Notes: a model not told the origin generated them from the sequence alone. Positions 1 through 28,914 are shown, counted from the first letter of the stretch. The stretch: DNA of 32,000 nucleotides from Desulfocapsa sulfexigens DSM 10523 (GCF_000341395.1 NC_020304.1:2250001-2282000), one strand, 5' to 3'. Program-made: numbers and translations.

Positions 1-2
1 AT

Positions 3-1556
3 GATAATGCCAGGGCTATTATTAGTAATTTCGGTGAAGATTTCTGGTTAGGACCTTTCACTGAAGTGCTGCTTGCGAAAGCTCCATTTTTTTCTATATT
101 TGTCGCATTATCAATAAGTAGCGGAATCCCACTTCGAGTATTGGAATTTTTGTTGTACGTGCCGTTACCATTCTTGTTTTTGTTTGCTCTTCGTCCTCTT
201 CAACTGCCTAAGTTTTTCCTCCTGTCTATCAGTATCGTGTGTTTACTGTTTATTCCTGCTGCTGGTTTGCAACTGAGGCTTGTCCGTACTACTGTATTTG
301 GTGCGATAGTGCTGTATACGCTAATTTTTATGACAGCCCTTATAGTTTATGTGGCGATGCGACAAAAAAGAATCTGGATTTGGGCTTTTTTGACGGGGGC
401 AGGTATAGGTTGTGCTGCAATGACCCGTGAAGAAGGAATCTGGCTTTTTTTTCCTGCATTAATTGCAATGACAGCAGTTTTTCTTTTCTCCAGGAAACAA
501 AAAAGAGTTATTGAAGTGATTGTACTTACACTTCTTTTAGTGGTTGGGTATCAGGTACCATTGGCTACTTTTTCTTTATTAAATTACCATTCATATGGTG
601 TGTTTTCCCCTTCTTTAAGGCAGAATCAGTCATATAAAAAATTGTACTCCACTTTAACGTCGATTGAGCCGGCTGAAAGGTCTAAGTATGTACCCTTTGC
701 TGCAAAGGCAAGACAAAGTACATATGAAATATCACCGTATTTCAGACAATTAAAACCATTTGTCGAGGGGGCGGCTGTGGACGATCTGGCAACTAATGCT
801 GAGCATCACAGGATAAGTGGCTGGGGGGAAAAACTGAATACGCGAGAGTTTTTTGTTTCGACGTTTGATTGGGCCTTGGCAAGAGCAATTTTTCTCAGTG
901 GGAGAACAACCGCCCGTGACTTTTTAGATTTCTGCGACAAGGCTACAGAGGAGATTCAATCTGCTATCCACTCGGGTGAACTCGTGGCTGGTAGTACAGG
1001 CCTGGGACTGTTACCTTCTTTGTCTGAAGGTGAAGTTTCTCAGGTCTTGTATGCTACCTACAGGTCAATACAGCTGCTGTTCTGGCCACAAGGAATTGTC
1101 CGAAAAAATAATCTCAGCACCAATCCAAATCCTGGAGTTGCTTCAAATTGGCATTCGTCACTCGGCACTTGGGCAGCTGATTCTCATGTCCTCGGCGAGC
1201 GTTTTTCAGATATTGTGTTTAATCGTTTTGTGGTCAATCTTTTTAAAGTGAGCTATGGAATAACCTTTGTACTCGGAATAATTGCTCTTGTATTTTTACT
1301 TCGCAAAGAGAAACGGCAAGGGGTGATACTTTTAGCAGTAATGACAGCTTCTGCAGGAGGAGTGATTGCTTTTAGTGTTGTTATGGGAGTTATGGATACT
1401 ATTGCCTGGTCTATATTAGAACAGGTTGGGAGTTACAATATTATAGGACAATTCCCACTACATTTTTTATTCTTGATTTCAGTTGTTGCCATCCTGCATT
1501 GTTTTGAGGTTTTTCGATCAGAAAAGCTTGTTACAGAGAAGGAAATATCTGTTTAG
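3..1556 (+). CDS. Polytopic membrane protein, possibly a GT-C-fold (ArnT/PMT-like) glycosyltransferase; the 5' end lies outside the window
   Basis: The frame is open from nt 3, with no stop before the GTG at 66 used by the ORF track (DNARAIISNFGEDFWLGPFTEV...), so the gene is cut by the window edge. It has about 6 hydrophobic helices, a hydrophilic domain of about 210 aa, then 3-4 C-terminal helices. It lies on the same strand as wzt, 170 nt upstream. The family call is from architecture only. Confidence 0.5.
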   Translation, partial: DNARAIISNFGEDFWLGPFTEVLLAKAPFFSIFVALSISSGIPLRVLEFLLYVPLPFLFLFALRPLQLPKFFLLSISIVCLLFIPAAGLQLRLVRTTVFGAIVLYTLIFMTALIVYVAMRQKRIWIWAFLTGAGIGCAAMTREEGIWLFFPALIAMTAVFLFSRKQKRVIEVIVLTLLLVVGYQVPLATFSLLNYHSYGVFSPSLRQNQSYKKLYSTLTSIEPAERSKYVPFAAKARQSTYEISPYFRQLKPFVEGAAVDDLATNAEHHRISGWGEKLNTREFFVSTFDWALARAIFLSGRTTARDFLDFCDKATEEIQSAIHSGELVAGSTGLGLLPSLSEGEVSQVLYATYRSIQLLFWPQGIVRKNNLSTNPNPGVASNWHSSLGTWAADSHVLGERFSDIVFNRFVVNLFKVSYGITFVLGIIALVFLLRKEKRQGVILLAVMTASAGGVIAFSVVMGVMDTIAWSILEQVGSYNIIGQFPLHFLFLISVVAILHCFEVFRSEKLVTEKEISV

Positions 1557-1728: not shown

Positions 1729-3117
1729 ATGTCTTTAAGTGATCTAGCAGTGATTGTAAATGATGTATCCAAGTGCTATCAAATTTATGAGCAGCCGGCT
1801 GATCGTCTGAAACAGATGCTGTTTCCCCCCTTGTATCAACACGTATTAAGAAAAGTATCTAAACAATATTTTTCAGAGTATTGGGCTTTGAAAAATGTCT
1901 CGTTTACTGTGGAGAAGGGTCAATCTGTAGGTATTGTGGGGAAGAATGGTGCGGGCAAGTCCACATTGTTACAGATTATATGCGGGGTTTTGTTTCCTAC
2001 CTTTGGCGGTGTTCAACTGAATGGCAGGATAGCAGCTCTTTTGGAACTCGGAACCGGTTTTAATCCTGAGTTCACAGGTGTTGAAAATATCTATCTTTAT
2101 GGTGCTATACTTGGTCTGGATAGAAATGAAATGGCTGACCGATTTGATAGGATTGCTGCATTTGCAGATATTGGTAATTATATCAACCAACCCATTAAAA
2201 CATTTTCCAGTGGTATGGTTGTGCGGCTCGCGTTTGCGGTAATTGCCCATGTAGATGCCGATATACTTGTTATTGATGAAGCTTTGGCTGTTGGGGATGC
2301 ATTCTTTCAACAAAAATGTATCCGGTTTCTTCGTTGCCATAAGGAAAAGGGTGGAACGAGTTTATTTGTAACCCACGATACATCCTCAGTAGTTACCTTA
2401 TGTGACAAGGCACTACTTCTTTTTCCGGGGAGTAGCAGAACTCCAATTTTTGGTGAGTCTGAAGATGTATGTAAACTCTATCTTGAAGATCTGTATAGTG
2501 ATCCAGAGCGAGAGAGAATCCTGCTACACCCTGATAAGTTTCAACGTAATTCCCAGGAAAAATCCCATACAAAAAAAACACTTTATGGTGATTTGACATC
2601 TTTTGATTCTATCTATGCAGTCTCCACCTTTAAGCATGGGGCAGAAGATTTTGGAAAAGGTGGGGCGGTAATTATTGATGCTGGTTTTTTTGATGATGAC
2701 GGGCATCGATTAAGTATGATTAAGGGCGAGGATACTGTTTCTTTTATTATCAAAGCAAAAATATATCGTCATATTATCTGGCCTGCTTTTGGGTTTATGC
2801 TGAAAAACAGTTTAGGTGAATATCTTTTTACAGAAGGCACAGACCAGCATTTTAGAAGCCATAAATTGGTGTTTGATGAGAATGATATTGTTGTAGCAAC
2901 ATTTTCCTTTACGATGCCGCACTTGTTTCGAGGACAATATATGATAAATGTTGCTCTTGCAGAAGGTATTGGTGATGAGCATATACAGCATCATTGGATT
3001 CATGATGCGGTACAAATAGATGTACTGTCAAGTCGCCTTATGCACGGCCACAGTGGAATGAATAATGTCAAAATGTCCATTGAAATACAGTCAGATAGTT
3101 TCAAAGGGACAATATGA
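1729..3117 (+). CDS. wzt: Polysaccharide ABC-exporter ATP-binding protein (Wzt/TagH type) with a C-terminal glycan-cap-binding-type extension
   Basis: Walker A GKNGAGKST, signature-like FSSGMVVRLAFA, Walker B ILVIDEALAVGD and H-loop FVTHD match the Wzt/TagH/KpsT pattern. A beta-rich C-terminal extension of about 190 aa (GGAVIIDAGFFDDDG...FRGQYMINVALAEG...) resembles the Wzt C-terminal carbohydrate-binding domain. I prefer the ATG at 1729 to the track's TTG at 1726; AAGGA lies about 9 nt upstream. The stop overlaps the next gene's start (ATGA at 3114-3117). Confidence 0.88.
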   Translation: MSLSDLAVIVNDVSKCYQIYEQPADRLKQMLFPPLYQHVLRKVSKQYFSEYWALKNVSFTVEKGQSVGIVGKNGAGKSTLLQIICGVLFPTFGGVQLNGRIAALLELGTGFNPEFTGVENIYLYGAILGLDRNEMADRFDRIAAFADIGNYINQPIKTFSSGMVVRLAFAVIAHVDADILVIDEALAVGDAFFQQKCIRFLRCHKEKGGTSLFVTHDTSSVVTLCDKALLLFPGSSRTPIFGESEDVCKLYLEDLYSDPERERILLHPDKFQRNSQEKSHTKKTLYGDLTSFDSIYAVSTFKHGAEDFGKGGAVIIDAGFFDDDGHRLSMIKGEDTVSFIIKAKIYRHIIWPAFGFMLKNSLGEYLFTEGTDQHFRSHKLVFDENDIVVATFSFTMPHLFRGQYMINVALAEGIGDEHIQHHWIHDAVQIDVLSSRLMHGHSGMNNVKMSIEIQSDSFKGTI

Positions 3118-6100
3118 TTATTGCATGTCGTTATGGTGATTTTGCAGTTCCTGGTGATAAGGATTTAATTGTTAACTCTTTGCGCCATTATGGAGAATGG
3201 GCTCAAGCCGAGATAGATGTTTTAGCCCACTTCATTACTGAAGGACATGTTGTCGTTGATGTTGGTGCTTTTGTTGGAACACATGCACGTGCATTCTCCA
3301 CAATGGTAGGATTGGAAGGAAAGGTACATGCTTTTGAGCCAAACACTGTCATTTATTCATTTCTTGAAGAGAATGCTGCAAATTCTTCATTCTCTAACAT
3401 CGCAGCATATCCTTTTGGGCTTAGTAGTAAAAATGAAAAAATGGCTAGTGTTAATACATGGGATGGTGCAAATCAGGGCGCATTTCGGCTAGAGAGAAAT
3501 GAAGGTGGAGATGTTGAACAAACCGTGGATGTTAAGTCATTGGATTCTTTGGGTCTGGGCGAGATTGATTTCATCAAGGCCGATGTGGAAGGCATGGAAC
3601 TTAGGGTGCTGATCGGTGGAGAAAAAACAATCGAAACATATAGGCCTGCCATTTTTATTGAAATAAATTCCCTGGAAGCGTCCTACGGTATTCTCAATTG
3701 GGCTAGGCAGCGGGATTATTTTATTTATGGGGTGATCACCTCGGCTTTTAATCCAGATAATTTTAATAGGGCTGAAAGTGATATATTTGAGCAGGCCAAA
3801 GAATGCGGTTTGTTGTTGATTCATTCTCAAAAACTCAATGAATATTGTGTTGATGTAGACCGATTGGCTTTGCCTGAAATCAAAACTGCTGATGACATAG
3901 CTCTTCTATTACTGCATAAGCCGCAGTATCCATATGAAATATTAGAGAAGCTAGCAACTGCTGAAAAATTGGGGATTGATTATCTGGCTCCGAGTCTGGT
4001 GAAAACGGTGAACGAGTTTACCCGTCGGATCACGAGCTTTGAGCAAACTTTAGGGGAGCGTGACATTCAGCTAGAAAATCTAAATAAAATTATCAGAGAA
4101 CGAGATGTTCAGCTAGAAAATATAAATAAAATTATCGGAGAGCGAGATATTCAGCTAGAAAATTTAAATAAAATTATCAGAGAACGAGATATTCAGATAG
4201 GAGATCTTGGCCAAGTTGTTGGAGAATGCAACAACCAAATAGCGAATCTTAATCAGGTTGTGAATGAATATGCCAAGCAGATGGGCAGTATAATATCATC
4301 AAAGTCCTGGATTCTTACAAAACCTCTGAGGTTTCTTGATCGCTTCGTGCGTGTGGGGGGGGGGGCATTGCCGACACTGCTCAGAAATAATCATGAACGA
4401 AAAACCAGTACATCCAGAGCTAATGATGAGGAGCGGCTACGTACTTCTGTAAAAGGGGTGTTTGATGTGTCGTTCTACCTGAAAACATATCCTGATATTG
4501 CTGCCTTGAGTGTAGATCCTCTGGATCATTTTTTAACAATAGGCTGGCAGGAAGGTCGTAATCCCAACCTGTACTTTGATACTAATTATTATCTATTGAA
4601 AAACCCTGATATTGCCATCGCTAATATCAATCCACTTCTGCATTATGTTGAGCATGGATGGCGGGAAGGGCGTAATCCAAGTAGATGTTTTGATACTAAG
4701 TATTATTTGTCTGATAATTCCGATGTCGCAGACGCTGATATCAATCCACTTCAACACTATATAGATCATGGCTCACGGGAAGGCCGTAGTTCGTATATGT
4801 TTTTTGATGAGAAATATTACCTCGAAAATAATCCAGATATTCGTTCGTCAGGAGTTAATCCTCTTATTCATTTTATGGAATTTGGTTGGCGGGAAGGGCG
4901 GTCTCCTGGGATCTATTTTGATATAAACTTTTATTTGTCCGAGAATCCAGACATTGCTGAAGCGGAAGTGAATCCTCTCATTCATTTTGTAGAATTTGGC
5001 TGGCTGGAAGGGCGCAACCCAAATCCATATTTCAACATTAATTACTATTTGTTAGAAAATTCAGCCGTAGCTGATTCAGGAATGAATCCACTGCTACATT
5101 TTATCAAACAGGGATGGCAGAATGGGTGCAACCCAAACCCCGATTTTGATGTCGATTATTATATTAATGCCTATCCAGATGCGGTTCGTTCCGGAGACAA
5201 TCCCTTACGTCACTATATTGAAACAGGTCGTTCATCTGGATATATGACATTTCCAGCGAAACAGAGAGTTAATGGTGTCGTGAAGGATACGTTTGTGAGT
5301 CATGAAAAACAAAAATATGTTTCAGAGATGATATACGATGATATCAAAAGGAGGATTAAACATTCCACGATACGAATAAAAAACACACCTCAATGTGTGA
5401 AAATCACGGAAGATACTATTGCAGACAGTATAGAGAACTTATCGTTTAATTCTTGGAGTAACCCGGAAGTTTCCATCATTATTCCAGTTTTTAACTGTTT
5501 GCAAATGTTGGTGGAATGTTTGGTTAGTATTAAAAAATATGTACGGATACCTTTTGAAATAATAATAGCTGATGATTGTTCCGACGATACAAGAATTGAA
5601 GCGATGTTTGAAAATCATCAGACAGTCAAATATATCAGGAATGAGGTTAATGTTGGTTTTTTGCGAAATGTGAACAATAGTATATCCTGTTGTTCCGGGG
5701 AGTTCATTTTCCTTCTAAACAGTGATGTACAGCTGCTGGATGATTGTGTTTCAGTATTGGTGAGTCACTTGCAAACTGATCCAGATGCCATGGTATCTGG
5801 ACCTAAAATTATCTACCCGAATGGAATTTTGCAGGAAGCTGGAGGATGTATACGTACTGATTGTTCCACCGTTATGACAGGGAATGGCCATAGTGCTGAG
5901 GACACGAGATATGGATTTAATCGTTATGTTGATTACATCTCCGGCGCATGCCTGTGTTTTGAAAAAGAGAATTTTATTTTGCTTGGTAAGTTTGACGAAA
6001 GTTACTCACCTGCTTATGCAGAGGATCTTGAGTTCTGTGCTCGTGTGATAAAAATGGGAAAAAAGGTTTTATATGTTGCTGAAACCACAATTGTTCATCG

Positions 6101-7277
6101 GCTAAGTGCATCCAGTGAGGCTGTGTCTGAAGATTTTAAAATTTATCAGTCTGCTGTCAATAAACAAAAGTTTAGAGAAGGATATAGTACGTTTTTCAAA
6201 AAAGAAAATCGGATCAAACCGATTGCTTTTTATTTGCCACAGTTTCACTCTATTAAAGAAAATAATTACTGGTGGGGGGAAGGATATACTGAATGGAGAG
6301 AAGTTGCGAACGCTCGGCCTCTTTTCCATCACCATTATCAGCCTCATATTCCTGCTGATCTCGGGTTCTATGATCTCGATACCCACAAAGGGATTTTTGA
6401 AAAACAAGCGGCACTGGCTAGACGGTATGGCATACATGGATTTTGTTTCTACTATTATAATTTTGGTAACTTTGAGTTACTTGAAAAACCACTTGAGCGT
6501 TTTCTTCGGTCAGAAGCTGATATACAATTCTGCCTTTGCTGGGCAAATGAAAATTGGACACGAACCTGGGATGGGAGAGAAAATGATATTTTGTGTAAGC
6601 AAAATGAAGATGCTGATGGGAATTTTTTGGGTGTTCTAAAGGGGATGGAGCGTTATGTTCACGATAGCCGATATGTTACGGTTGATAAGAAACCGCTTGT
6701 TCTTATTTATCGAGCAGAGCTGATTGGAAACATTAGGAATGTGACTCGGTCATGGCGTAAGTATTGGAAAGATAAATATAAAGGTGAACTGTATCTGTGC
6801 CTGGTTGACAGTATGGGACGTTCTTCAGGATCAAGTATCTCCCCGGAGGAGTTAGGGTTTGATGCTGCTGTGGAGTTTCCTGTACACCATGTCAATAACA
6901 CTTCAAAGCTTAAGATATCTGATGAACTGGAAAATGTTCGATTTGAAGGGATGTCGTACGATTATACTGATGCCGTTGTGGAAATATGTTCCAGGAAGCA
7001 CCCTGGTTATAAACGGTTTCCTGGAGTATTTCCTTCATGGGATAATACCCCTCGAAGAGGTAATACTTCAACCGTTTTTCGTAATGCTCATCCTAGCTCG
7101 TTCCAAGTGTTTCTTGAGAATAAATGTGAGGAGGCAAAGCTCTATAGTCGTGATGAACGACTTCTTTTTGTTAATGCCTGGAATGAGTGGGGGGAAGGTG
7201 CTCACCTGGAACCTGACATTGAATACGGTCACACCTGGTTACAGGTTATAGAAAAAGTAGTGAGAGAGAACCAATAA
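3114..7277 (+). CDS. 1387-aa multidomain glycan assembly protein: FkbM-family methyltransferase, coiled coil, 7 x 38-aa repeats, GT2 glycosyltransferase, WbsX-like domain
   Basis: The N-terminal part has VVDVGAFVGTHARAFS, FEPN and IDFIKADVEGMELRVLIGG (FkbM methyltransferase pattern). Residues ~296-400 are heptad-patterned (ERDIQLENLNKIIR x3 and following) and end in SKSWILTKPLRF. Residues 450-710 are seven NPLxH(Y/F)xxxGWxEGRxP repeats. Residues ~785-1010 carry VSIIIPVFN...IIIADDCSDD...LLNSDV (GT2). Residues ~1036-1387 carry IAFYLPQFHSIKENNYWWGEGYTEW (WbsX-like family). It is a single uninterrupted ORF, translationally coupled to wzt. Confidence 0.85.
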   Translation: MIIACRYGDFAVPGDKDLIVNSLRHYGEWAQAEIDVLAHFITEGHVVVDVGAFVGTHARAFSTMVGLEGKVHAFEPNTVIYSFLEENAANSSFSNIAAYPFGLSSKNEKMASVNTWDGANQGAFRLERNEGGDVEQTVDVKSLDSLGLGEIDFIKADVEGMELRVLIGGEKTIETYRPAIFIEINSLEASYGILNWARQRDYFIYGVITSAFNPDNFNRAESDIFEQAKECGLLLIHSQKLNEYCVDVDRLALPEIKTADDIALLLLHKPQYPYEILEKLATAEKLGIDYLAPSLVKTVNEFTRRITSFEQTLGERDIQLENLNKIIRERDVQLENINKIIGERDIQLENLNKIIRERDIQIGDLGQVVGECNNQIANLNQVVNEYAKQMGSIISSKSWILTKPLRFLDRFVRVGGGALPTLLRNNHERKTSTSRANDEERLRTSVKGVFDVSFYLKTYPDIAALSVDPLDHFLTIGWQEGRNPNLYFDTNYYLLKNPDIAIANINPLLHYVEHGWREGRNPSRCFDTKYYLSDNSDVADADINPLQHYIDHGSREGRSSYMFFDEKYYLENNPDIRSSGVNPLIHFMEFGWREGRSPGIYFDINFYLSENPDIAEAEVNPLIHFVEFGWLEGRNPNPYFNINYYLLENSAVADSGMNPLLHFIKQGWQNGCNPNPDFDVDYYINAYPDAVRSGDNPLRHYIETGRSSGYMTFPAKQRVNGVVKDTFVSHEKQKYVSEMIYDDIKRRIKHSTIRIKNTPQCVKITEDTIADSIENLSFNSWSNPEVSIIIPVFNCLQMLVECLVSIKKYVRIPFEIIIADDCSDDTRIEAMFENHQTVKYIRNEVNVGFLRNVNNSISCCSGEFIFLLNSDVQLLDDCVSVLVSHLQTDPDAMVSGPKIIYPNGILQEAGGCIRTDCSTVMTGNGHSAEDTRYGFNRYVDYISGACLCFEKENFILLGKFDESYSPAYAEDLEFCARVIKMGKKVLYVAETTIVHRLSASSEAVSEDFKIYQSAVNKQKFREGYSTFFKKENRIKPIAFYLPQFHSIKENNYWWGEGYTEWREVANARPLFHHHYQPHIPADLGFYDLDTHKGIFEKQAALARRYGIHGFCFYYYNFGNFELLEKPLERFLRSEADIQFCLCWANENWTRTWDGRENDILCKQNEDADGNFLGVLKGMERYVHDSRYVTVDKKPLVLIYRAELIGNIRNVTRSWRKYWKDKYKGELYLCLVDSMGRSSGSSISPEELGFDAAVEFPVHHVNNTSKLKISDELENVRFEGMSYDYTDAVVEICSRKHPGYKRFPGVFPSWDNTPRRGNTSTVFRNAHPSSFQVFLENKCEEAKLYSRDERLLFVNAWNEWGEGAHLEPDIEYGHTWLQVIEKVVRENQ
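4056..4265 (+). repeat. In-frame 42-bp (14-codon, two-heptad) tandem repeat: three near-identical units plus two degenerate units
   Basis: The units are 4056-4097, 4098-4139 and 4140-4181 (ERDIQLENLNKIIR / ERDVQLENINKIIG / ERDIQLENLNKIIR, differing at only a few nucleotides). Units 4182-4223 and 4224-4265 have decayed (ERDIQIGDLGQVVG, ECNNQIANLNQVVN). Read directly from the sequence. Confidence 0.92.
4355..4365 (+). repeat. G11 homopolymeric tract inside the coding sequence
   Basis: The sequence cgt gtg ggg ggg ggg gca (R V G G G A) gives eleven consecutive G. Other G runs I noticed in this window are 6 nt (near 820, 6274, 7189). Confidence 0.95.
4461..5243 (+). repeat. Seven tandem 114-bp (38-aa) coding repeats, the last one truncated to 33 aa
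   Basis: The unit consensus is FDxxYYLxxNPDIAxAxxNPLxH(Y/F)xxxGWxEGRNPxxY. The boundaries fall at an exact 38-aa period from F450. Confidence 0.9.
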
Positions 7278-8444
7278 ATGACAATTTGTGTATTTGGACA
7301 TCCTTATTCTTCTCTAGGTACAGGAGAACAGTTGGCATCATTCTCGCGCTCACTTGACGTTTGCCATGTCGAACATAAATTATTTGATATTTATGGTAGC
7401 AGCGCATGTGATAAGGGTATCATTCGTCCGTGGCTCAAGGAAAAAGAAACAAAGGATCCGGGGTACGGTGACATCCGAATATTTCATATAAATGGAGACG
7501 AAATAATACCATGTATGAAACATTTGGAAGACAAGGGGTTTGATTTTTCTGCAGGTAGCAAAAATATCATCATTCCTGCTTGGGAACTTCCGATATTTCC
7601 TGAAATATGGAGAGAAGGGATTAATCGATTTGATGAGGTCTGGGCACTCTCGCATTATATGGAAAAAATGCTTTCAGGCTGGACCAGTGGAGCCGTAAGG
7701 TATGTCGGACAATCAGCTGAGAGGCAAAATGGAATCCTCTATCCCCGAAAATACTTTGGTATTAAAAATTCTTCCCTTGTCTTTCTTTCCTTTTTTGATC
7801 AGTCATCATATGTCGGAAGAAAAAATCCGACAGCACTCTTGGATTTTTATAAAATATTAAGAAAAACCCATCCATTCAGTGATTTTCAACTGGTGATCAA
7901 GGCAAAGAATATTGATTCGAACAGTTCGCTTGAAATTGAAATAATCGATGAAAATGTTCTCTTGATAAATGGTAATTTAAGTTACCATGAAATGACATCA
8001 CTTCTTGATTCTTCAGATGTTTTTGTCTCTTTGCACCGTGCTGAAGGGTTTGGCAGAGGTGGAGCCGAGGCCGTTCTTCGTCAAAGGCGTGCCATTGTCA
8101 CAAACTATTCTGGTGTTGAAGATTATTCTGCTGACCCAGCTGTCTTGCCCGTTGGGTATGATTTGGTACCAGTTAAAGAAGGAGAGTATCCTTATCATGA
8201 GGGGCAGGTATGGGCTGAACCTCGAATGAGTGATGCCGTAAAACATGCCAGTAAACTCATTAATGACTATGAGCGAGGTTTTACAAACAGCTGTTTTTTT
8301 GACAAGGAGGAAAATGCAGGGGAAATTGTTCGTAGAGTGGCTTCTAGTTTTAGTGTTGGGGTGAATGTAATTAAAAACCTGAACAAGACTAAAGGTCCTG
8401 TATCTGGTTGTGCCAAGAGATATGCGCATTTGCATGACTCGTAA
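7278..8444 (+). CDS. GT4-family (GT-B fold) glycosyltransferase
   Basis: The C-terminal half has RKNP...VIKAK...SDVFVSLHRAEGFGRGGAEAVLRQRRAIVTNYSG, which includes an E-x7-E motif. The ATG directly follows the TAA of the upstream gene (TAAATG). Confidence 0.72.
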   Translation: MTICVFGHPYSSLGTGEQLASFSRSLDVCHVEHKLFDIYGSSACDKGIIRPWLKEKETKDPGYGDIRIFHINGDEIIPCMKHLEDKGFDFSAGSKNIIIPAWELPIFPEIWREGINRFDEVWALSHYMEKMLSGWTSGAVRYVGQSAERQNGILYPRKYFGIKNSSLVFLSFFDQSSYVGRKNPTALLDFYKILRKTHPFSDFQLVIKAKNIDSNSSLEIEIIDENVLLINGNLSYHEMTSLLDSSDVFVSLHRAEGFGRGGAEAVLRQRRAIVTNYSGVEDYSADPAVLPVGYDLVPVKEGEYPYHEGQVWAEPRMSDAVKHASKLINDYERGFTNSCFFDKEENAGEIVRRVASSFSVGVNVIKNLNKTKGPVSGCAKRYAHLHDS

Positions 8445-8546
8445 AGAGATAACATTCTCTATACTCTAAGGTTCGGGGCTGAGCGCATATTGCTTCAATG
8501 TGTGATACTTTTTGTTGTCTGGTAGAGACTGGTTTGGGGCTGATAG

Positions 8547-9740
8547 TTATGCTGATCTTGTTTCTAATGCCAGAATACTTTTAAAAAAAGCAGTAATTAC
8601 AATCTGAATGCCCACCGCTGTCATGGTAACAGCGGGGACAAGTATGCGCATCATTCTTTCTGGAGCTAAAGCACCGAATTGTACCTGACTCCACAGAAAG
8701 ATGGAATAAAGAACACATCCTGTCCCTGCTGCTATTGTGATAATTCCTACTATGAGTAATAATTCGAGAGACATATAGCGTTGCAGGCGTTCTATTGTTT
8801 TATCCTGTGGTAAAAGACCGGCATTTATAGCAAACTGTTTTGCAAGAAAGGCAAAACTGATGGATTGTGTTCCGGACAGGATTGCAGCACCTGACAGGAG
8901 TAATGTATGAATACCAATGGAAATATTACCAATTTGTAGTGGACCTTTTACCAGTAAAGCCATTCCCAGGATACCAAGAGAGACAAGGCAGATCCCGGGA
9001 TAGAGAAAAAGCCAGCGAGGGCTGAACATTAACAGAAAACGTAAATGCCTCCATCCGTCACGCCAACTCTTTAGGTGTGGTGACCGGGTACGTCCATCTG
9101 GATACAGAGTGACGGGCACCTCTGTAATGGATAGGTTGTGGAAACTTGCCTTCACCACCATTTCACTGGCAAATTCCATTCCCAATGTGCACAGGTGAAG
9201 GTTTAGGATGGCTATCCTGTTAAAACCGCGAAGTCCGCAATGGAAATCACGGATACCTGGATGAAAGAATAAGCGACCGATAAAACTCAGAACAGGATTC
9301 CCTAAATAGCGGTGCAGGGCAGGCATGGCACCCGGTTTGATGCTTCCGGAAAATCGATTTCCCATGACCAGGTCGTATCCTTTCCGAAGTTGTTCAAGAA
9401 TCGGCATCAAAGTGTAGAGATCGTAGCTGGCGTCGGCATCAGCCATTATTACATAGGTTCCTTTGGCCCGTGTGATTCCTCCCTGCAGGGCACTGCCATA
9501 TCCTCTGGTTTTTATAGAAACAACCTGGGCCCCCAGCTGCTTTGCAATAGACTGAGATCCATCTGTACTTCCATTGTCTGCAATGATAATCTCACCGGAT
9601 ACCTTGTTTTTACTTAAAAAAGCAAGGGCTTTTGATATGCAGGAGGCCAGGGTTTCTGCCTCATTGAGACAGGGCATGACAATGGATAACTCACAATCAT
9701 TGTGATCCTTTTCTACTGCAGTCACTGTCTCGGGTTTCAT
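8547..9740 (-). CDS. GT2 glycosyltransferase with about 4 C-terminal transmembrane helices (polyprenyl-phosphate sugar synthase-like, Dpm1/GtrB/ArnC type)
   Basis: Motifs LSIVMPCLNEAETL...IIIADNGSTDGS...VIMADADASYD (DxD) are followed by a hydrophobic C-terminal third of the protein. Confidence 0.82.
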   Translation of the reverse strand: MKPETVTAVEKDHNDCELSIVMPCLNEAETLASCISKALAFLSKNKVSGEIIIADNGSTDGSQSIAKQLGAQVVSIKTRGYGSALQGGITRAKGTYVIMADADASYDLYTLMPILEQLRKGYDLVMGNRFSGSIKPGAMPALHRYLGNPVLSFIGRLFFHPGIRDFHCGLRGFNRIAILNLHLCTLGMEFASEMVVKASFHNLSITEVPVTLYPDGRTRSPHLKSWRDGWRHLRFLLMFSPRWLFLYPGICLVSLGILGMALLVKGPLQIGNISIGIHTLLLSGAAILSGTQSISFAFLAKQFAINAGLLPQDKTIERLQRYMSLELLLIVGIITIAAGTGCVLYSIFLWSQVQFGALAPERMMRILVPAVTMTAVGIQIVITAFFKSILALETRSA

Positions 9741-13701: not shown

Positions 13702-15141
13702 TTAGCTGTTTTTTTGACTAACAAGATAGGAAAGAAAATTTTTAGCACCTCGTAATTTACAATAGAGGTCTGTTTTACTTCTGGCTGAAAGGAGAAATTT
13801 TAATATGTATGAAGGTCGGAAATAAAATTTCTTTAATCCACGATCAGTGCTTTCCTGAATGAATTGACTACTCAAGCCAGGATACTCAATAACCGCCGAT
13901 TGTTCTCCGTCAGTTAGCCACTGGTCCCAGCTGGTCGCTTGGAGAAGACCGTTATCTTTGCATATTTGAAAAAATTGAGTTCCGGGAAATGGCACTGCCG
14001 CTGAAAACTGGACCGAATGTAACCCCAGGTTACAGGCAAAATCAAGGGTTGTGTTGATGCTATCCCTGGTTTCACCAGGGAGTCCAAGCACAAAGCAACC
14101 ATGTACATCCAGGCCGGTTTTATGGGCCAGGGACATGAAATGGCGAGCATTGGCAACTGATTCTCTTTTGTTCATGGTCGCCAGCATATCATCGCTTCCA
14201 GATTCAAAACCAACCAGGAGTTCTCGACAGCCAGCTTTTTTGAGTATCTGGAAAAGTTCTTTGTCTCCGGTGTCTGTTCTGGCATTTACTGAAAAGGTTA
14301 TTTTCAGTTTCCGGCGTAAGATTTCTTCACAGATTGCCATAGCATTAGCTTTGTTGATGGTAAATGTGTCATCTTCGAAAAAGAATTCACCGCCTTTGAC
14401 CACCTGTGGACAGATTTCAATGTCATGCTCAATCTCATCAACAACCTTTTCCGGCAATCTGAGACGAACCTGGTGGCCATGCATAACTTCCGGCCAAAGA
14501 CAGAAGATACATGTGTGTGGGCAGCCTCTACCTGAAAATATATCAATGTACGGATGCAGTTTCAGACCATCAAAATATTTCATCAGGTCAAGCTGATGCC
14601 ATGCCGGAAAGGGGAGAGAGTCCAGATCCTGGATGAGTTGCCTTTTTTCGGTTCTTTGCGGTGTACCATCTTTCAGATAACAGATACCGGCAATGTCATC
14701 GAGAATTGGATAATTTGCAATAACATCCCTAATTGTCAGATCATATTCACCAATGCATATGACATCTACGGCTCCATTACTCAGGAGAAGTGTTTCTTCG
14801 GGCAGAGCGGAGCAATGTGGTCCAACCATTAGAATTTTGGCATCACTTACTTCTTTACAGATTCTTGCACATTCAATATCAGAGAAAATTGAGGGAGTGG
14901 TGGAGTCCAGGACAATAAAATCAGGCTGGCCATTTTTTACCAGCAAGCGCAGATCGTCTTTTTGAAGGTTTTCTGCCGGAAAATCAAAAAGTTTTGCCGT
15001 AATTCCTTCTTGTTCAAGCACAGCAGTGCCGTAGGCAAGCCAGTCAGGTGCCCGTAAAACACGACCTCGTGTCCTGGCTGCCCAGCGTTGTGATCTGTTG
15101 AAATTTTTAACAAATGGTTCGTTGATGAGAAATACTTTCAT
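13702..15141 (-). CDS. B12-binding-domain radical SAM enzyme (class B)
   Basis: An N-terminal Rossmann-like B12-binding-type region (KVFLINEP...FIVLDSTTPS...KILMVGPHCSALPEE) is followed by the radical SAM cluster motif GRGCPHTCIFC (CxxxCxxC). Confidence 0.85.
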   Translation of the reverse strand: MKVFLINEPFVKNFNRSQRWAARTRGRVLRAPDWLAYGTAVLEQEGITAKLFDFPAENLQKDDLRLLVKNGQPDFIVLDSTTPSIFSDIECARICKEVSDAKILMVGPHCSALPEETLLLSNGAVDVICIGEYDLTIRDVIANYPILDDIAGICYLKDGTPQRTEKRQLIQDLDSLPFPAWHQLDLMKYFDGLKLHPYIDIFSGRGCPHTCIFCLWPEVMHGHQVRLRLPEKVVDEIEHDIEICPQVVKGGEFFFEDDTFTINKANAMAICEEILRRKLKITFSVNARTDTGDKELFQILKKAGCRELLVGFESGSDDMLATMNKRESVANARHFMSLAHKTGLDVHGCFVLGLPGETRDSINTTLDFACNLGLHSVQFSAAVPFPGTQFFQICKDNGLLQATSWDQWLTDGEQSAVIEYPGLSSQFIQESTDRGLKKFYFRPSYILKFLLSARSKTDLYCKLRGAKNFLSYLVSQKNS

Positions 15142-20338: not shown

Positions 20339-20340
20339 GG

Positions 20341-21084
20341 TCAAGGCTTACGCAACAGGGACTTGATTTTGAACTTAAATAAATCAAACCCAACATTGAT
20401 CGGATCGCTTAGCGGGCGAAATTTTGAATCAAAATTGTTTTCCCAGGTTATGGGTACTTCTTTTATACGATACTTTCTCTTTTTTGCGATACAGAGGAGT
20501 TCTGGGTCAAAACCAAAACGGCATATTGTCAGTTCAGGAAATATTTGTTGGGCGCATTCTGCTGTAAAGGCCTTAAATCCACATTGGGAATCTTGAATAT
20601 CTGGCAACAGGAGCCATCTGACAATATATCCAAAGAGTTTGCCCATCCGGTCTCTGACAAAATTCTGTGGGATTGTTTTTTGAGAGTTGGCCAGTGCACG
20701 CGATCCAATTGCTATATCATAATCTTCTTTCAGAAGAGCTTGTGCCATCTTTTCATACTCATCTATAGGAGTAGACAGGTCTGCGTCAGTAAAGAGGCGT
20801 ATTTCTCCGTTTGCATGGAGCATTCCCCGTTTAATTGAATACCCTTTGCCCCTGTTTTTGCTGTTCTGAAGAATCGTAATGGGGACAGATTGTGAAGAGC
20901 ATTCTTTTTGCAGAATAGACAGCGTATTGTCTTTTGACCCATCATCAACGATGATGAGTTCAATCCTTATTGGGCGCTGGGAAAAATACGTGCTGATATC
21001 TTGAATGGTTTGTTGAATTCGATTTTGTTCATTGTATGTCGGGATGATCACGCTTAACAAGTAGTTGTCTTCTTTGATAAACAT
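20341..21084 (-). CDS. Small GT2 glycosyltransferase (polyprenyl/dolichyl-phosphate hexosyltransferase-like, Dpm1/Alg5 type)
   Basis: Motifs LLSVIIPTYNEQNRI...ELIIVDDGSKDNT...RLFTDADLSTP (DAD). It is the first gene of the 7-gene minus-strand operon. Confidence 0.85.
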   Translation of the reverse strand: MFIKEDNYLLSVIIPTYNEQNRIQQTIQDISTYFSQRPIRIELIIVDDGSKDNTLSILQKECSSQSVPITILQNSKNRGKGYSIKRGMLHANGEIRLFTDADLSTPIDEYEKMAQALLKEDYDIAIGSRALANSQKTIPQNFVRDRMGKLFGYIVRWLLLPDIQDSQCGFKAFTAECAQQIFPELTICRFGFDPELLCIAKKRKYRIKEVPITWENNFDSKFRPLSDPINVGFDLFKFKIKSLLRKP

Positions 21085-24457: not shown

Positions 24458-24502
24458 GTAATGTGTTATCAGTGATACTTTAAAATAAACTGTGTGTATA
24501 CA

Positions 24503-28827: not shown

Positions 28828-28914
28828 TGGTGCCGAAGAGAAGACTCGAACTTCCACGAGAATACTCCCACTAGACCCTGAACCTAGCGCGTCTACCAAT
28901 TCCGCCACTTCGGC
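28828..28914 (-). tRNA. tRNA-Leu (anticodon CAG), type II with a long variable arm and an encoded CCA
   Basis: The reverse complement is GCCGAAGTGGCGGAATTGGTAGACGCGCTAGGTTCAGGGTCTAGTGGGAGTATTCTCGTGGAAGTTCGAGTCTTCTCTTCGGCACCA. The 7-bp acceptor stem is GCCGAAG/CTTCGGC, the anticodon stem is CTAGG/TCTAG with loop TTCAGGG, and a TTCGAGT T-loop is present. It is close to E. coli tRNA-Leu(CAG) as I recall it. Confidence 0.92.

What the first reader, a model, noticed from the sequence alone, without database searches (positions are those of the whole stretch)
3114..7277. All-in-one candidate terminator / molecular ruler / polymerase for an ABC-exported glycan, in an uncharacterised domain combination
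One ORF encodes five parts in order: an FkbM-type SAM methyltransferase, ~100 aa of coiled coil ending in SKSWILTKPLRF, seven 38-aa repeats, a GT2 domain and a WbsX-like domain. It is translationally coupled (ATGA) to a Wzt. That Wzt's C-terminal extension is the kind that, in E. coli O8/O9a, recognises the methyl or phosphomethyl cap added by WbdD. Two precedents exist. In WbdD, a cap-adding terminator has a coiled coil that sets chain length. In WbbB (Raoultella terrigena / Klebsiella O12), terminator, coiled coil and polymerase sit in one polypeptide. This protein has the WbbB-style logic but differs in three ways: the terminator chemistry is an FkbM methyltransferase, the polymerase modules are GT2 + WbsX, and there is an additional repeat array. 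I am not aware of this architecture having been characterised.
Basis: partly seen in the sequence, partly recalled or inferred. Interest (0 to 1): 0.7.

Follow-up and report, generated by a model that had tools for sequence, protein, structure and literature searches.

The report
Methyl-capping ruler-polymerase for surface glycan
One 1387-residue Desulfocapsa protein, encoded right after a glycan-export ATPase, joins a sugar-capping methyltransferase, a rigid coiled-coil spacer, an unnamed helical repeat, a glycosyltransferase and a glycosidase-like domain. It is an untested variant of the known systems that build, measure, cap and export bacterial surface polysaccharides.

Summary
Window 3114-7277 (+) is one intact ORF, identical to Desulfocapsa sulfexigens WP_015404236.1. 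It holds five parts in order:
- an FkbM methyltransferase;
- a ~103-residue coiled coil ending in SKSWILTKPLR;
- seven 38-aa repeats;
- a GT2 domain;
- a WbsX domain.
It overlaps (ATGA) an upstream Wzt that carries a Wzt_C domain.

Family-wide evidence favours a terminator/ruler:
- The N-terminal module occurs in at least 215 species genomes, often in the order wzm-wzt(CBD)-FkbM.
- Its spacer varies from 55 to 296 residues but is quantised in heptads.

Three corrections apply:
- WbsX is not a known glycosyltransferase fold. It is a GH99-like barrel with the GH99 Glu-x-x-Glu dyad conserved, so its polymerase role is unproven.
- No Wzm permease lies within about 40 kb.
- Fusions of a methyltransferase terminator to a polymerase are already characterised (Klebsiella O7 ORF6, Geobacillus WsaE).

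The protein fuses two recurrent cassettes, [FkbM-coil-SxSW] and [repeat-GT2-WbsX]. The fusion recurs in other phyla. The 38-aa repeat has no Pfam family and no PDB fold match.

Verdict: a new variant of a known kind, of moderate interest.

The parts
1729..3117 (+). wzt: ABC-transporter ATPase with a C-terminal carbohydrate-binding (Wzt_C) domain. In the 1726-start numbering, the NBD hit is aa 55-187 and Wzt_C is aa 307-443, about nt 2644-3054.
   Evidence: Pfam ABC_tran 2.3e-21 and Wzt_C 2.2e-30. Best PDB match is A. aeolicus Wzt 8dku, 5.7e-72 over the NBD. The CBD alone matches the A. aeolicus CBD only weakly (E 0.036), with the cap-lid Trp aligned. Walker A, signature and Walker B motifs are intact.
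3114..3117 (+). ATGA start/stop overlap between wzt and the big ORF. An AGGGA Shine-Dalgarno-like sequence lies 4 nt upstream.
   Evidence: Sequence read directly. The same 4-nt overlap of Wzt and FkbM gene coordinates is seen in L001 and Thiothrix nivea L006.
3114..3989 (+). N-terminal module (aa 1-292): FkbM-type SAM methyltransferase plus a conserved C-terminal extension that ends in LLLLHKPQYPYE. It is the candidate cap-adding terminator.
   Evidence: Pfam PF05050 and TIGR01444. PDB 2py6 'Methyltransferase FkbM' E 0.0035. The SAM-binding motif VVDVGAFVGTH is present. Mean column identity is 57% across 13 family members, with invariant K269-P-Q-Y272.
3990..4298 (+). Coiled-coil spacer (aa 293-395, about 103 residues). 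If it is a canonical coiled coil, its length is roughly 15 nm (inference).
   Evidence: Constant heptad register. Single AF2 helix with block-mean pLDDT mostly 86-93. The sequence is poorly conserved, and one orthologue has a 14-aa (two-heptad) indel. Spacer length across the family is quantised mod 7.
4065..4200 (+). 42-nt tandem repeat, 3.2 copies, 90% match. It encodes the 14-aa units (ERDIQLENLNKIIR) of the coiled coil.
   Evidence: Tandem Repeats Finder.
4299..4355 (+). Conserved SxSWxxTxP[LIV]R motif and cationic amphipathic helix (aa 396-414). Candidate membrane or partner anchor at the base of the coil.
   Evidence: The motif is found in 43 of 110 homologues, always after the coil. It is invariant in the orthologues. 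In stand-alone FkbM-coil proteins it lies 20-30 aa from the C-terminus. The helical hydrophobic moment is 0.67-0.68 with net charge +3, joint highest in the protein.
4356..4448 (+). Linker (aa 415-445). The model has low confidence here (pLDDT below 50 for aa 408-429; the rest is a helix of modest confidence).
   Evidence: AF2 pLDDT below 50 for model residues 129-150, which are aa 408-429.
4449..5246 (+). Seven 38-aa repeats (aa 446-711; consensus P...FD..YYL..NPDiA....NPL.Hf.e.GW.EGRn). An un-annotated helical repeat array.
   Evidence: AF2 block-mean pLDDT is 92-97, with three short helices per unit. No PDB fold match; best E 0.58. About 1000 homologous arrays, most listed hits carrying no Pfam domain, some fused to secreted-protein domains (trypsin, matrixin, RTX).
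5463..6185 (+). GT2 (GT-A fold) glycosyltransferase module (aa 784-1024). Motifs: D820-D821, N869-S-D871 (an NxD variant of DxD) and YAEDLEF.
   Evidence: Pfam PF00535 3.1e-23 and PF13641. PDB chondroitin synthase 2z87 4e-10. Motifs read.
6222..7250 (+). WbsX domain (aa 1037-1379): a GH99-like (beta/alpha) barrel. The candidate catalytic dyad is E1358/E1361 in NEWGEG (nt 7185-7196).
   Evidence: Pfam PF14307 2.4e-122. AF2 pLDDT 90.4, pTM 0.92. Foldseek top hits are OpGH99A 5ngw, human MANEA and Bacteroides GH99, E 7e-12 to 1e-9, TM about 0.6. The profile aligns NAWNEWxEGxxxEP with BxGH99 FNEWHEGSQIEP, which contains E333/E336. The dyad is invariant in 52 homologues.
7278..8444 (+). Downstream gene starting immediately after the stop codon (TAAATG). 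A weak GT1/GT4-like protein, probably in the same transcription unit.
   Evidence: Pfam Glycos_transf_1 3.7e-05, below cutoff. It is conserved downstream in L001 and L003. Terminator-like hairpins at 1602-1616 and 8484-8504 bracket the three genes.

Best explanation
The ORF encodes a soluble, membrane-peripheral assembly enzyme of an ABC-transporter-dependent cell-surface glycan, most likely an LPS O-antigen, in Desulfocapsa sulfexigens. Every step below is inferred, not shown.

1. The C-terminal half (38-aa repeat array, GT2, GH99-like WbsX) sits near the membrane. It extends the polyprenol-linked chain. GT2 makes one linkage, and WbsX provides a second glycosyl-transferring or chain-editing activity.
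2. The coiled coil of about 103 residues oligomerises. It holds the N-terminal FkbM-type methyltransferase about 15 nm away. Its base is fixed by the cationic amphipathic SxSWxxTxPLR helix.
3. Only chains long enough to reach the distal methyltransferase are O-methylated at the non-reducing end. Methylation blocks further extension.
4. The methyl cap is read by the Wzt_C domain of the translationally coupled Wzt, which licenses export.

The repeat array probably binds the polymer or a partner protein. The protein is a fusion of two cassettes that are separate genes in other bacteria.
For: - Domains, their order and the coupling to wzt are established.
- The N-terminal module defines a family present in at least 215 species genomes. 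In 22 of 80 sampled loci a Wzt with a CBD is nearby, and in 23 a Wzm is nearby. Typically the order is wzm-wzt(CBD)-FkbM with overlapping stops and starts.
- rml genes lie within 8 kb in at least 17 of the 80 loci. This parallels wzm-wzt-wsaE in Geobacillus, where WsaE adds the 2-O-methyl cap (PMC2943079).
- The spacer between the invariant KPQY and SW..T.PxR motifs ranges from 55 to 296 residues in 61 distinct members. Of these, 34 fall in one mod-7 class and 14 in the class four residues away (chi-square p 5e-19; 1e-4 on the 36 distinct lengths). This is the behaviour of a rigid heptad rod whose length is tuned while the phase at both ends is kept.
- The coil sequence is poorly conserved and the ends are invariant. 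One orthologue is exactly 14 aa shorter. A 42-nt tandem repeat encodes the 14-aa units.
- Stand-alone FkbM-coil proteins end just after the SxSW motif, as WbdD ends in its polymerase- and membrane-binding region (PMC3482155, PMC11231755).
- FkbM-coil genes lie next to separate (GT)-repeat-WbsX genes in Variovorax, Paraburkholderia and others. This is a fusion/fission relationship.
- In family members the C-terminal slot is filled by GT2+GT4, RgpF, GT9+WbsX or GT2+WbsX. That is consistent with interchangeable polymerase modules.
- V. cholerae RfbT, linked to Inaba-to-Ogawa conversion, is an FkbM-family enzyme. From general knowledge, the Ogawa determinant is a methyl group on the terminal sugar.
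- A methyl-cap-binding CBD is documented for A. aeolicus Wzt (PMC9445017), the closest solved relative of this Wzt.
Against: - There are no chemical data on the D. sulfexigens glycan. Neither a cap nor a modal chain length has been demonstrated.
- No Wzm gene lies in the window, in the 10 kb upstream (L003), or beside the orthologues in L001, L002 and L010.
- WbsX has a glycosidase-like fold with an intact GH99 dyad, not a known GT fold. The second 'polymerase' activity is therefore conjecture.
- The cluster holds at least eight other GT genes that could polymerise.
- The CBD's ligand cannot be read from its sequence; the match to the A. aeolicus CBD has E 0.036.
- Only 22-28 of 80 family loci show Wzt within 8 kb. 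This is a lower bound from home-made HMMs, but the Methylophaga locus has a Wzt without a CBD.
- The oligomeric state of the coil is unknown. The monomer AF2 model cannot show a coiled coil as such.
Confidence: 0.6

Rival explanations
1. The overall terminator-ruler logic holds, but the WbsX domain is a hydrolase or endo-glycanase (trimming, editing or release), not a transferase. The polypeptide then carries only one true GT. Polymerisation is shared with neighbouring GTs, for example the GT1-like gene at 7278-8444.
For: The WbsX model is a GH99-like barrel (E 7e-12 to 1e-9, TM about 0.6), followed by GH71. The GH99 catalytic dyad motif NEW(H/G)EG is conserved and invariant in 52 homologues. 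NCBI names family members 'glycoside hydrolase family 99-like'. No paper in the searchable library shows transferase activity for WbsX. From general knowledge, hydrolases are co-encoded with polysaccharide synthases in other systems (BcsZ, PslG, PelA).
Against: WbsX always accompanies exactly one conventional GT (GT2, GT9 or RgpF) in the position where dual-GT polymerases carry their second GT. A cytoplasmic endo-glycanase fused to the enzyme that builds the polymer would be futile unless tightly controlled. B. gladioli mutants in a large gene annotated wbsX are phage-resistant, with predicted aberrant or truncated O-antigen (PMC13391952), but this does not distinguish the two roles.
Confidence: 0.3
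2. The methyltransferase decorates internal residues, or a non-glycan substrate, and does not terminate chains. The coiled coil is only an oligomerisation or scaffold element with no length-measuring role.
For: FkbM-family enzymes methylate diverse acceptors; the family is named after the FK506 methyltransferase (general knowledge). [quoted passage not shown] No cap chemistry is known for this organism. Many family loci show no Wzt CBD within 8 kb.
Against: The methyltransferase always sits at the end of the coil distal to the GT modules. The spacer is heptad-quantised with phase kept at both ends over a five-fold length range, which is hard to explain for a mere oligomerisation tag. There is direct translational coupling to a CBD-bearing Wzt here and in 25 other loci. 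[quoted passage not shown]
Confidence: 0.15
3. The glycan is not exported by a Wzm/Wzt transporter. The Wzt here would be orphaned or re-purposed. The pathway could instead serve protein O-glycosylation or another polymer that uses the GT-C and Wzy_C-like proteins of the cluster.
For: No ABC2_membrane gene lies within about 10 kb upstream or 29 kb downstream. The cluster contains three GT-C-like membrane proteins and a Wzy_C-like protein scoring 27 bits, below the cutoff of 31.7. From general knowledge, Wzy_C-type proteins include protein O-oligosaccharyltransferases as well as WaaL.
Against: The ATPase motifs of Wzt are intact. The gene is conserved and coupled to the big ORF in all five related loci. 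The closest family relative outside this lineage (L009, Desulfobulbia) has the canonical wzm-wzt-FkbM order, so wzm was probably relocated rather than lost. A protein-linked glycan made by an ABC-dependent route, as in Geobacillus S-layer glycans, would still fit the main explanation.
Confidence: 0.12
4. The long ORF is an artefact: two or more genes joined by mis-assembly or sequencing error.
For: In one related MAG (L010, 56% identity) the equivalent reading frame is interrupted by an in-frame TAA.
Against: The ORF is identical in the finished genome and intact in three further independent assemblies at 99% identity. It is intact in two 58-61% orthologues. The same order occurs in an Acidobacteriaceae genome (L055) and in other cluster representatives. 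The L010 stop lies inside a repeat unit (FDSAFYL*ENPDV), in the same frame. It is therefore a nonsense change or MAG error, not a gene boundary.
Confidence: 0.01

Closest known systems
Klebsiella pneumoniae O7 ORF6 (1414 aa; J Biol Chem 2024, PMC11231755)
   Same: A single polypeptide with an N-terminal methyltransferase-containing terminator, an extended coiled coil and C-terminal polymerase GT modules. One of those is a GT2 with an NxD motif, as here. An extra non-catalytic domain (Ig-like CBM) sits in the terminator half. The system works with a CBD-bearing Wzt.
   Different: The O7 cap is methyl-phosphate and needs a 223-aa kinase domain, for which there is no room here: only about 100 aa separate the FkbM core from the coil. 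The O7 polymerase is GT2+GT2, not GT2+GH99-like WbsX. O7 ORF6 has no 38-aa repeat array.
WbbB of K. pneumoniae O12 / Raoultella terrigena
   Same: Terminator, coiled-coil ruler and two-module polymerase in one protein. Export requires recognition of the cap by the Wzt CBD (as summarised in PMC11231755).
   Different: The WbbB terminator is a beta-Kdo glycosyltransferase that adds a sugar cap, not a methyltransferase. No homologous domain is detected here.
WbdD of E. coli O8 / O9a (K. pneumoniae O5 / O3)
   Same: A methyl (O8) or methyl-phosphate (O9a) cap is added by an enzyme at the distal end of a coiled coil. The membrane-proximal end carries the membrane and polymerase-recruitment region. 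The stand-alone FkbM-coil-SxSW proteins found here have the same layout (PMC3482155).
   Different: WbdD is a separate protein from the polymerase WbdA. No sequence similarity between the N-terminal module here and any WbdD structure was detected at E up to 10. There is no kinase domain here.
WsaE of Geobacillus stearothermophilus NRS 2004/3a (S-layer glycan)
   Same: An N-terminal methyltransferase that adds the 2-O-methyl cap is fused to two chain-extending rhamnosyltransferase domains. The gene order is wzm-wzt-wsaE with overlapping stops and starts (PMC2943079, PMC3898925). This matches the most common family architecture found here, FkbM-coil-GT2-GT4 after wzm-wzt.
   Different: WsaE has GT modules only, with no WbsX and no repeat array. 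[quoted passage not shown] Homology of its methyltransferase to FkbM could not be tested because the sequence and the primary paper are not held.
MT-coiled-coil protein of the E. coli O101/O162 rfb locus (Sci Rep 2026, PMC13168486)
   Same: An N-terminal methyltransferase domain plus a C-terminal coiled coil, in an ABC-dependent O-antigen locus. An intact gene is required for O-methylation of the polymer.
   Different: It is a stand-alone protein without GT modules. Its family relationship to the FkbM module here was not tested.
GH99 endo-alpha-1,2-mannosidases/mannanases (Bacteroides GH99, human MANEA)
   Same: The WbsX domain has the same barrel fold (TM about 0.6) and the conserved N-E-W-x-E-G motif that contains the two catalytic glutamates.
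   Different: Identity is only 12-16% and profile E-values are 2e-4 to 6e-3. The domain is cytoplasmic, fused to a GT2, and embedded in a biosynthetic rather than degradative protein. No activity is known.

Membership tests
Coiled-coil terminator / ruler systems of ABC-transporter-dependent glycan assembly (WbdD, WbbB, O7 ORF6 type) | The Wzt nucleotide-binding protein carries a C-terminal carbohydrate-binding domain. | tested here: met
   Wzt_C 2.2e-30, 106 bits against a cutoff of 30.4.
Coiled-coil terminator / ruler systems of ABC-transporter-dependent glycan assembly (WbdD, WbbB, O7 ORF6 type) | An extended coiled coil has the terminating enzyme at the end distal to the polymerase and membrane end. 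| tested here: met
   FkbM at aa 1-292, a 103-residue helix at aa 293-395 with constant heptad register, then the GT modules. Heptad quantisation across the family. This is prediction only; oligomerisation was not tested.
Coiled-coil terminator / ruler systems of ABC-transporter-dependent glycan assembly (WbdD, WbbB, O7 ORF6 type) | Polymerase GT modules are in the same protein, or are recruited by its membrane-proximal end. | tested here: inconclusive
   The GT2 module is present with DD and NxD motifs. The second module, WbsX, is GH99-like and of unknown activity.
Coiled-coil terminator / ruler systems of ABC-transporter-dependent glycan assembly (WbdD, WbbB, O7 ORF6 type) | A Wzm permease is encoded with Wzt. 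| tested here: not met
   No ABC2_membrane hit in the window, in the 10 kb upstream in L003, or in L001, L002 and L010. It is present in relatives L006, L007 and L009.
Coiled-coil terminator / ruler systems of ABC-transporter-dependent glycan assembly (WbdD, WbbB, O7 ORF6 type) | There is a non-reducing-end cap, export depends on it, and chain length depends on coil length. | not testable with these tools
   This needs glycan chemistry and genetics.
FkbM methyltransferase family (PF05050 / TIGR01444) | A profile match above the curated cutoffs, and a SAM-binding glycine-rich motif. | tested here: met
   58 bits against 22.7 and 92 bits against 37.7. The motif DVGAFVGTH is at aa 49-57. PDB 2py6 FkbM E 0.0035.
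GT2 glycosyltransferases (GT-A fold) | A profile match above cutoff, and a DxD-type metal/nucleotide motif. | tested here: met
   PF00535 83 bits against 23.3. D820-D821 and N869-S-D871. An NxD variant is functional in the second GT2 of O7 ORF6 (PMC11231755).
Pfam Glyco_tran_WbsX (PF14307) | A profile match above cutoff. | tested here: met
   409 bits against 25.1, covering model positions 2-350 of 350.
CAZy GH99 glycoside hydrolases | The GH99 fold and the catalytic Glu-x-x-Glu dyad. | tested here: met
   Foldseek E 7e-12 to 1e-9, TM about 0.6. NEWGEG aligns with BxGH99 NEWHEG, E333/E336.
CAZy GH99 glycoside hydrolases | Significant sequence membership and endo-alpha-mannosidase activity. | tested here: inconclusive
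   Only profile-level similarity (E 1.7e-4 to OpGH99A, 2.4e-3 to BxGH99) and 12-16% identity. Activity is not testable. I file it as GH99-like, not as a GH99 member.
WbbB-type (GT99 beta-Kdo transferase) terminators | An N-terminal Kdo glycosyltransferase domain. | tested here: not met
   The N-terminus is an FkbM methyltransferase. No GT hit lies N-terminal to the coil.
WbdD-type terminators | A WbdD-like methyltransferase, with or without a kinase domain. | tested here: not met
   No WbdD chain appears among PDB sequence hits for aa 1-290 at E up to 10. There is no kinase domain, and no room for one between aa 189 and 292.

The most novel reading that the evidence does not exclude
The GH99-like WbsX barrel is a genuine cytoplasmic glycosyl-transferring polymerase module. 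That would make it a glycosyltransferase of a glycosidase fold, possibly using GH99-style neighbouring-group (1,2-anhydro sugar) chemistry on manno- or rhamno-configured sugars. It would work in tandem with a GT2. The 38-aa repeat would be a new polysaccharide-binding or docking solenoid, shared between assembly enzymes and secreted RTX or protease proteins. The FkbM-coil-SxSW module would then be the most widespread family of methyl-capping molecular rulers.
Probability: 0.3. Interest if true: 0.8.

Novelty: new variant of a known kind. Interest (0 to 1): 0.5.

Why it matters
The terminator-ruler-export checkpoint is the accepted model for how ABC-dependent surface glycans get a defined length. 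It rests on a handful of enterobacterial proteins. This locus and its relatives add four things:
- The logic extends to a large, phylogenetically broad FkbM-based family (at least 215 species genomes). Its spacer length varies five-fold in heptad steps, which is a natural experiment on ruler length.
- The GH99-like WbsX domain has thousands of homologues and is annotated either as a glycosyltransferase or as a glycoside hydrolase. Here it occupies the slot where a second polymerase GT is expected, so its activity becomes directly testable.
- The 38-aa helical repeat is confidently modelled, lacks a Pfam family and a solved homologue, and has about 1000 homologous arrays.
- Culturable organisms (Variovorax, Paraburkholderia tropica, Stenotrophomonas, Thiothrix nivea, Acidovorax temperans) carry split or alternative versions suited to experiments.

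Tried and rejected
- Exact look-up of the window protein in the contig index found nothing. The 99% variant P0001 was used instead.
- Literature searches for WbsX, PF14307 and 'GH99-like' returned filarial-antigen noise or passing annotations only. No biochemical study was found.
- The search 'FkbM + O-antigen' gave no characterised coiled-coil terminator.
- The primary WsaE paper (PMC3258933) is not held. I could therefore not test whether WsaE, O7 ORF6 or the E. coli O101 MT are FkbM-type. The E. coli collection does not offer protein search.
- Foldseek of the coil-plus-repeat model against the PDB gave no match; best E 0.58. Including the long helix in the query may have reduced sensitivity.
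- I first read L010 as a natural fission between the terminator and polymerase halves. Reading the DNA showed a single in-frame TAA inside a repeat unit. I withdrew that claim. The fusion/fission argument now rests on the Variovorax, Paraburkholderia and other loci, where the genes are in different frames or orientations.
- I tested the idea that the repeat array is the specific docking partner of the SxSW motif. The two do not strictly co-occur, and the repeat also occurs in secreted proteins. The idea is kept only as one option.
- The upstream membrane protein (1-1556) was considered as a divergent Wzm and rejected. It is over 560 aa long and weakly PMT_2/GT-C-like.
- Assembly artefact was rejected (see rivals).
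- Rfam found only a tRNA at 28831-28914.
- The promoter scan was no better than shuffled sequence.

Full report
1. What is there

Window 3114-7277 (+) is a single uninterrupted ORF of 1387 codons. It is identical to WP_015404236.1 / AGF78545.1 of Desulfocapsa sulfexigens DSM 10523, annotated only as 'FkbM family methyltransferase'.

Pfam and NCBIfam give three significant domains:
- FkbM/Methyltransf_21 at aa 49-188 (TIGR01444, 92 bits);
- GT2 at aa 784-1024;
- Glyco_tran_WbsX at aa 1037-1379 (2.4e-122).

Two further elements lie between the methyltransferase and the GT2, and no library model covers them.

The first is a heptad-periodic segment. Its register is constant from about aa 286 to 390. 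AlphaFold2 models it as one 103-residue helix, aa 293-395, with block-mean pLDDT mostly 86-93. It ends in SKSWILTKPLR at aa 396-406.

The second is a set of seven units with a strict 38-residue period, aa 446-711. They are 32-66% identical to each other, with consensus P...FD..YYL..NPDiA....NPL.Hf.e.GW.EGRn.

The ATG of the ORF overlaps the TGA of the upstream gene (ATGA, 3114-3117). That upstream gene (1729-3117) is a Wzt: an ABC ATPase with a Wzt_C domain (2.2e-30) and intact Walker and signature motifs. The next gene (7278-8444, weakly GT1-like) starts directly after the stop codon. Terminator-like hairpins at 1602-1616 and 8484-8504 bracket the three genes. These hairpins are consensus matches only. 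The observation as written is therefore correct in every particular.

2. It is not an artefact

The same ORF is intact at 99% identity in a MAG and in two Logan assemblies. Orthologues of 61% and 58% identity from a JGI metagenome and another Logan run have the same domain order. Each lies directly downstream of a Wzt with Wzt_C.

A Desulfocapsaceae MAG (L010) has the same order, interrupted by one in-frame TAA that falls inside a repeat unit (FDSAFYL*ENPDV). This is a nonsense change or MAG error, not a gene boundary.

3. The N-terminal half belongs to a large family with terminator/ruler behaviour

About 100 homologues share only the first 300-400 residues. Their C-terminal parts differ: GT2+GT4 (the commonest form, about 1130 aa; for example Thiothrix nivea, Acidovorax temperans and Methylophaga) or RgpF.

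The 292-residue N-terminal module is well conserved. Mean column identity is 57%, and the YGEWA and LLHKPQY motifs are invariant. A scan of one genome per species found it in 215 genomes from many phyla.

In T. nivea and A. temperans the order is wzm-wzt(Wzt_C)-FkbM protein. In T. nivea the wzt and FkbM coordinates overlap by 4 nt, as in the window. In A. temperans, rmlBDAC lies immediately upstream.

I built HMMs from session sequences and surveyed 80 genome loci, each with 8 kb of flank. These counts are lower bounds:
- 22 loci have a Wzt CBD and 23 have a Wzm;
- across the 85 loci surveyed, 26 have a Wzt NBD directly upstream on the same strand, 25 of them with a CBD;
- at least 17 of the 80 have rml genes.

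The most informative result concerns the spacer between the invariant KPQY motif and the SW..T.PxR motif. In 61 distinct family members it ranges from 55 to 296 residues. Of these, 34 fall in one residue class modulo 7, and 14 fall in the class four residues away. Chi-square p is 5e-19 for all members and 1e-4 using only the 36 distinct lengths. Relatedness inflates these p-values. Even so, the lengths span a five-fold range.

A spacer that changes length in heptad quanta, while keeping phase at both ends, behaves as a rigid coiled-coil rod. It does not behave as a linker.

Three further points agree with this:
- The coil is the least conserved part among the three orthologues, while its flanks are invariant.
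- One orthologue is exactly 14 residues (two heptads) shorter.
- A 42-nt tandem repeat (3.2 copies, 90% match, 4065-4200) encodes the 14-residue units.

The motif SxSWxxTxP[LIV]R follows the coil in 43 of 110 homologues. In stand-alone FkbM-coil proteins of about 400-600 aa it lies only 20-30 residues from the C-terminus. In the window protein, aa 398-417 have a helical hydrophobic moment of 0.67-0.68 and net charge +3, joint highest in the protein. By inference, this is a membrane or partner anchor at the base of the rod. It would be analogous to the C-terminal region of WbdD that recruits the polymerase to the membrane (PMC3482155; PMC11231755).

4. The C-terminal half is a second recurrent cassette with unproven chemistry

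WbsX is a very large family. At least 7997 hits have E at or below 1e-20. Sources name them variously 'lipopolysaccharide biosynthesis protein', 'glycosyltransferase WbsX family' or 'glycoside hydrolase family 99-like'. GT2-WbsX fusions of about 580-615 aa are common.

An AlphaFold2 model of aa 1030-1387, built on 52 sequences, is confident (pLDDT 90.4, pTM 0.92). Its best PDB matches are GH99 enzymes: OpGH99A 5ngw, human MANEA, and the Bacteroides endo-alpha-mannosidases/mannanases. E-values are 7e-12 to 1e-9 and TM is about 0.6. GH71 comes next. No GT fold appears.

A profile of the family aligns its invariant NAWNEWxEGxxxEP with BxGH99 FNEWHEGSQIEP. That stretch contains E333 and E336, the residues mutated in the deposited E333Q and E336Q variants. 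In the window protein the equivalent residues are E1358 and E1361.

WbsX is thus a GH99-like barrel with the catalytic dyad preserved. I found no experimental study of its activity. The nearest evidence is genetic. [quoted passage not shown] The authors predict aberrant or truncated O-antigen (PMC13391952).

The 38-aa repeat array is modelled with block-mean pLDDT 92-97, with three short helices per unit. It has no PDB fold match; the best E is 0.58. A search with the array alone finds about 1000 proteins, and most of the listed hits carry no Pfam domain. Many are secreted-type proteins carrying trypsin, matrixin, RTX/serralysin or cadherin domains.

An exhaustive phmmer search of aa 1-1200 against 1.84 billion cluster representatives gave 9391 hits at E at or below 1e-30. 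I classified the best 150:
- 41 are repeat-GT2-WbsX;
- 20 are repeat-WbsX;
- 7 are GT2-WbsX;
- 9 carry the FkbM module plus GT2-WbsX, three of them with repeats in between.

Pfam confirms several related architectures:
- FkbM / repeat x2 / GT2 / WbsX in an Acidobacteriaceae genome (L055);
- FkbM / GT9 / WbsX in Elusimicrobia (L026);
- FkbM / RgpF / WbsX / GT4 in an alphaproteobacterium (L084);
- repeat x10 / GT2 / WbsX in Variovorax (L038).

In Variovorax, Paraburkholderia tropica and several MAGs, a stand-alone FkbM-coil-SxSW gene lies next to a separate (GT)-repeat-WbsX gene, in a different frame or orientation.

The window protein is therefore a fusion of two cassettes that elsewhere are neighbouring genes. 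The repeat array travels with the GT/WbsX half.

5. Most likely mechanism

Shown:
- the domains, their order and the translational coupling to wzt;
- family synteny with wzm-wzt(CBD);
- heptad quantisation of the spacer;
- the GH99-like fold and dyad of WbsX.

Inferred:
- The protein is soluble; it has no TM-like segment. It works at the cytoplasmic face of the membrane.
- The C-terminal GT2, together with WbsX, extends a polyprenol-linked chain.
- The coil, roughly 15 nm if canonical, holds the FkbM module away from the membrane. Only chains of sufficient length become O-methylated at their non-reducing end.
- Methylation stops extension and creates the epitope bound by the Wzt CBD.

Precedents for each step are:
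- WbdD (PMC3482155);
- WbbB and K. pneumoniae O7 ORF6 (PMC11231755);
- WsaE (PMC2943079, PMC3898925);
- the MT-coiled-coil protein of E. coli O101/O162, needed for O-methylation (PMC13168486);
- the FkbM-family RfbT of V. cholerae;
- the methyl-cap-binding CBD of A. aeolicus Wzt (PMC9445017).

The A. aeolicus Wzt is the closest solved relative of this Wzt: 5.7e-72 over the NBD, but only E 0.036 for the CBD alone, with the cap-lid Trp aligned.

I put 0.6 on the overall logic. I put about 0.45 on WbsX being a transferase rather than a hydrolase or editing domain. I leave the role of the repeat array open, between polymer binding and docking.

6. What speaks against it

- There is no glycan chemistry for this organism.
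- No Wzm gene lies in the 32-kb window, in the 10 kb upstream in the 99%-identical MAG, or beside the orthologues. Relatives outside this lineage keep wzm next to wzt (L009, L006, L007).
- The cluster has at least eight other GT genes, three GT-C-like membrane proteins and a Wzy_C-like protein. Assigning polymerisation to this protein rests on positional analogy.
- The ligand of the CBD cannot be read from its sequence.

7. Comparison and novelty

The system works like the WbbB / O7 ORF6 / WsaE class of fused terminator-polymerases. It is not a member of the WbbB or WbdD protein families: it has no Kdo-transferase domain, no kinase domain, and no detectable similarity to WbdD.

It differs in three ways:
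- It uses an FkbM-type methyltransferase. I found no characterised coiled-coil terminator explicitly of this family.
- It has a GH99-like domain in the second catalytic slot.
- It has a repeat array with no Pfam family.

The combination recurs in several phyla, so it is a class rather than a curiosity. It remains uncharacterised. I rate it a new variant of a known kind, interest about 0.5. The most novel reading not excluded (probability about 0.3) is that WbsX is a transferase with a glycosidase fold and that the repeat is a new polysaccharide-binding solenoid.

Noticed in passing
window 1-32000; L003 1-10000; L001; L002; L010: The Wzt here has no Wzm (ABC2_membrane) partner in the whole window, in the 10 kb upstream in a 99%-identical MAG, or beside the orthologues. 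Family relatives outside this lineage (L009 Desulfobulbia, L006, L007) keep the order wzm-wzt-FkbM.
   Followed up: partly
window 13702-15141 (-), 18965-20344 (-), 25733-27157 (-), 24494-25720 (+): Three B12-binding radical SAM genes and one SPASM-domain radical SAM gene are interleaved with the glycosyltransferase genes. One B12-rSAM is conserved at the same position in L001 and L003. They may act in sugar modification (for example C-methylation), but this was not examined.
   Followed up: no
window 1-1556 (+, runs off the window start), 17196-18917 (-), 21451-23184 (+), 23189-24457 (+), 8547-9740 (-): The cluster holds three GT-C-like membrane proteins (PMT_2 or Dpy19-like, all weak hits) and a Wzy_C-like protein (27 bits, below cutoff). 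It also holds a GT2 whose homologue in L003 carries GT2_TM_C. Together these suggest periplasmic decoration and ligation steps, in addition to the cytoplasmic assembly line. L001 also has a GtrA-like gene.
   Followed up: partly
window 4065-4200: A 42-nt tandem repeat (3.2 copies, 90% match) encodes the 14-residue units of the coiled coil. Orthologue P0003 is exactly 14 residues shorter in this region. The ruler may therefore change length through repeat slippage.
   Followed up: partly
window 4449-5246; proteins P0231-P0350: The 38-aa repeat is a widespread module with about 1000 homologous arrays, and most listed hits carry no Pfam domain. It also occurs in secreted-type proteins with trypsin, matrixin, RTX/serralysin and cadherin domains, mainly from Alphaproteobacteria (Microvirga, Devosia). 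It is modelled at very high confidence and has no PDB fold match.
   Followed up: partly
family-wide (61 distinct spacers from P and L sequences): The KPQY-to-SW-motif spacer falls into two heptad phase classes four residues apart (34 and 14 members). This would fit a conserved stutter. The window protein (129 residues) is in the minority class.
   Followed up: partly
L010 9465-9467: A Desulfocapsaceae MAG carries the same gene order with a single in-frame TAA inside a repeat unit. This is either a pseudogene or a MAG error. It superficially looks like a two-gene split.
   Followed up: yes
window 28831-28914 (-): A tRNA gene (Rfam RF00005, 49 bits) lies at the far end of the glycan cluster, just before FAD synthetase/riboflavin kinase, TPR and HEAT-repeat genes. 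This may mark the cluster boundary.
   Followed up: no
L008 (Methylophaga pinxianii): A family member (FkbM-coil-repeat x2-GT2-GT4) lies in a locus with sulfotransferase genes. The Wzt there lacks a CBD, and the Wzm is fused to TPR repeats. Not all family members are coupled to a cap-reading transporter.
   Followed up: no
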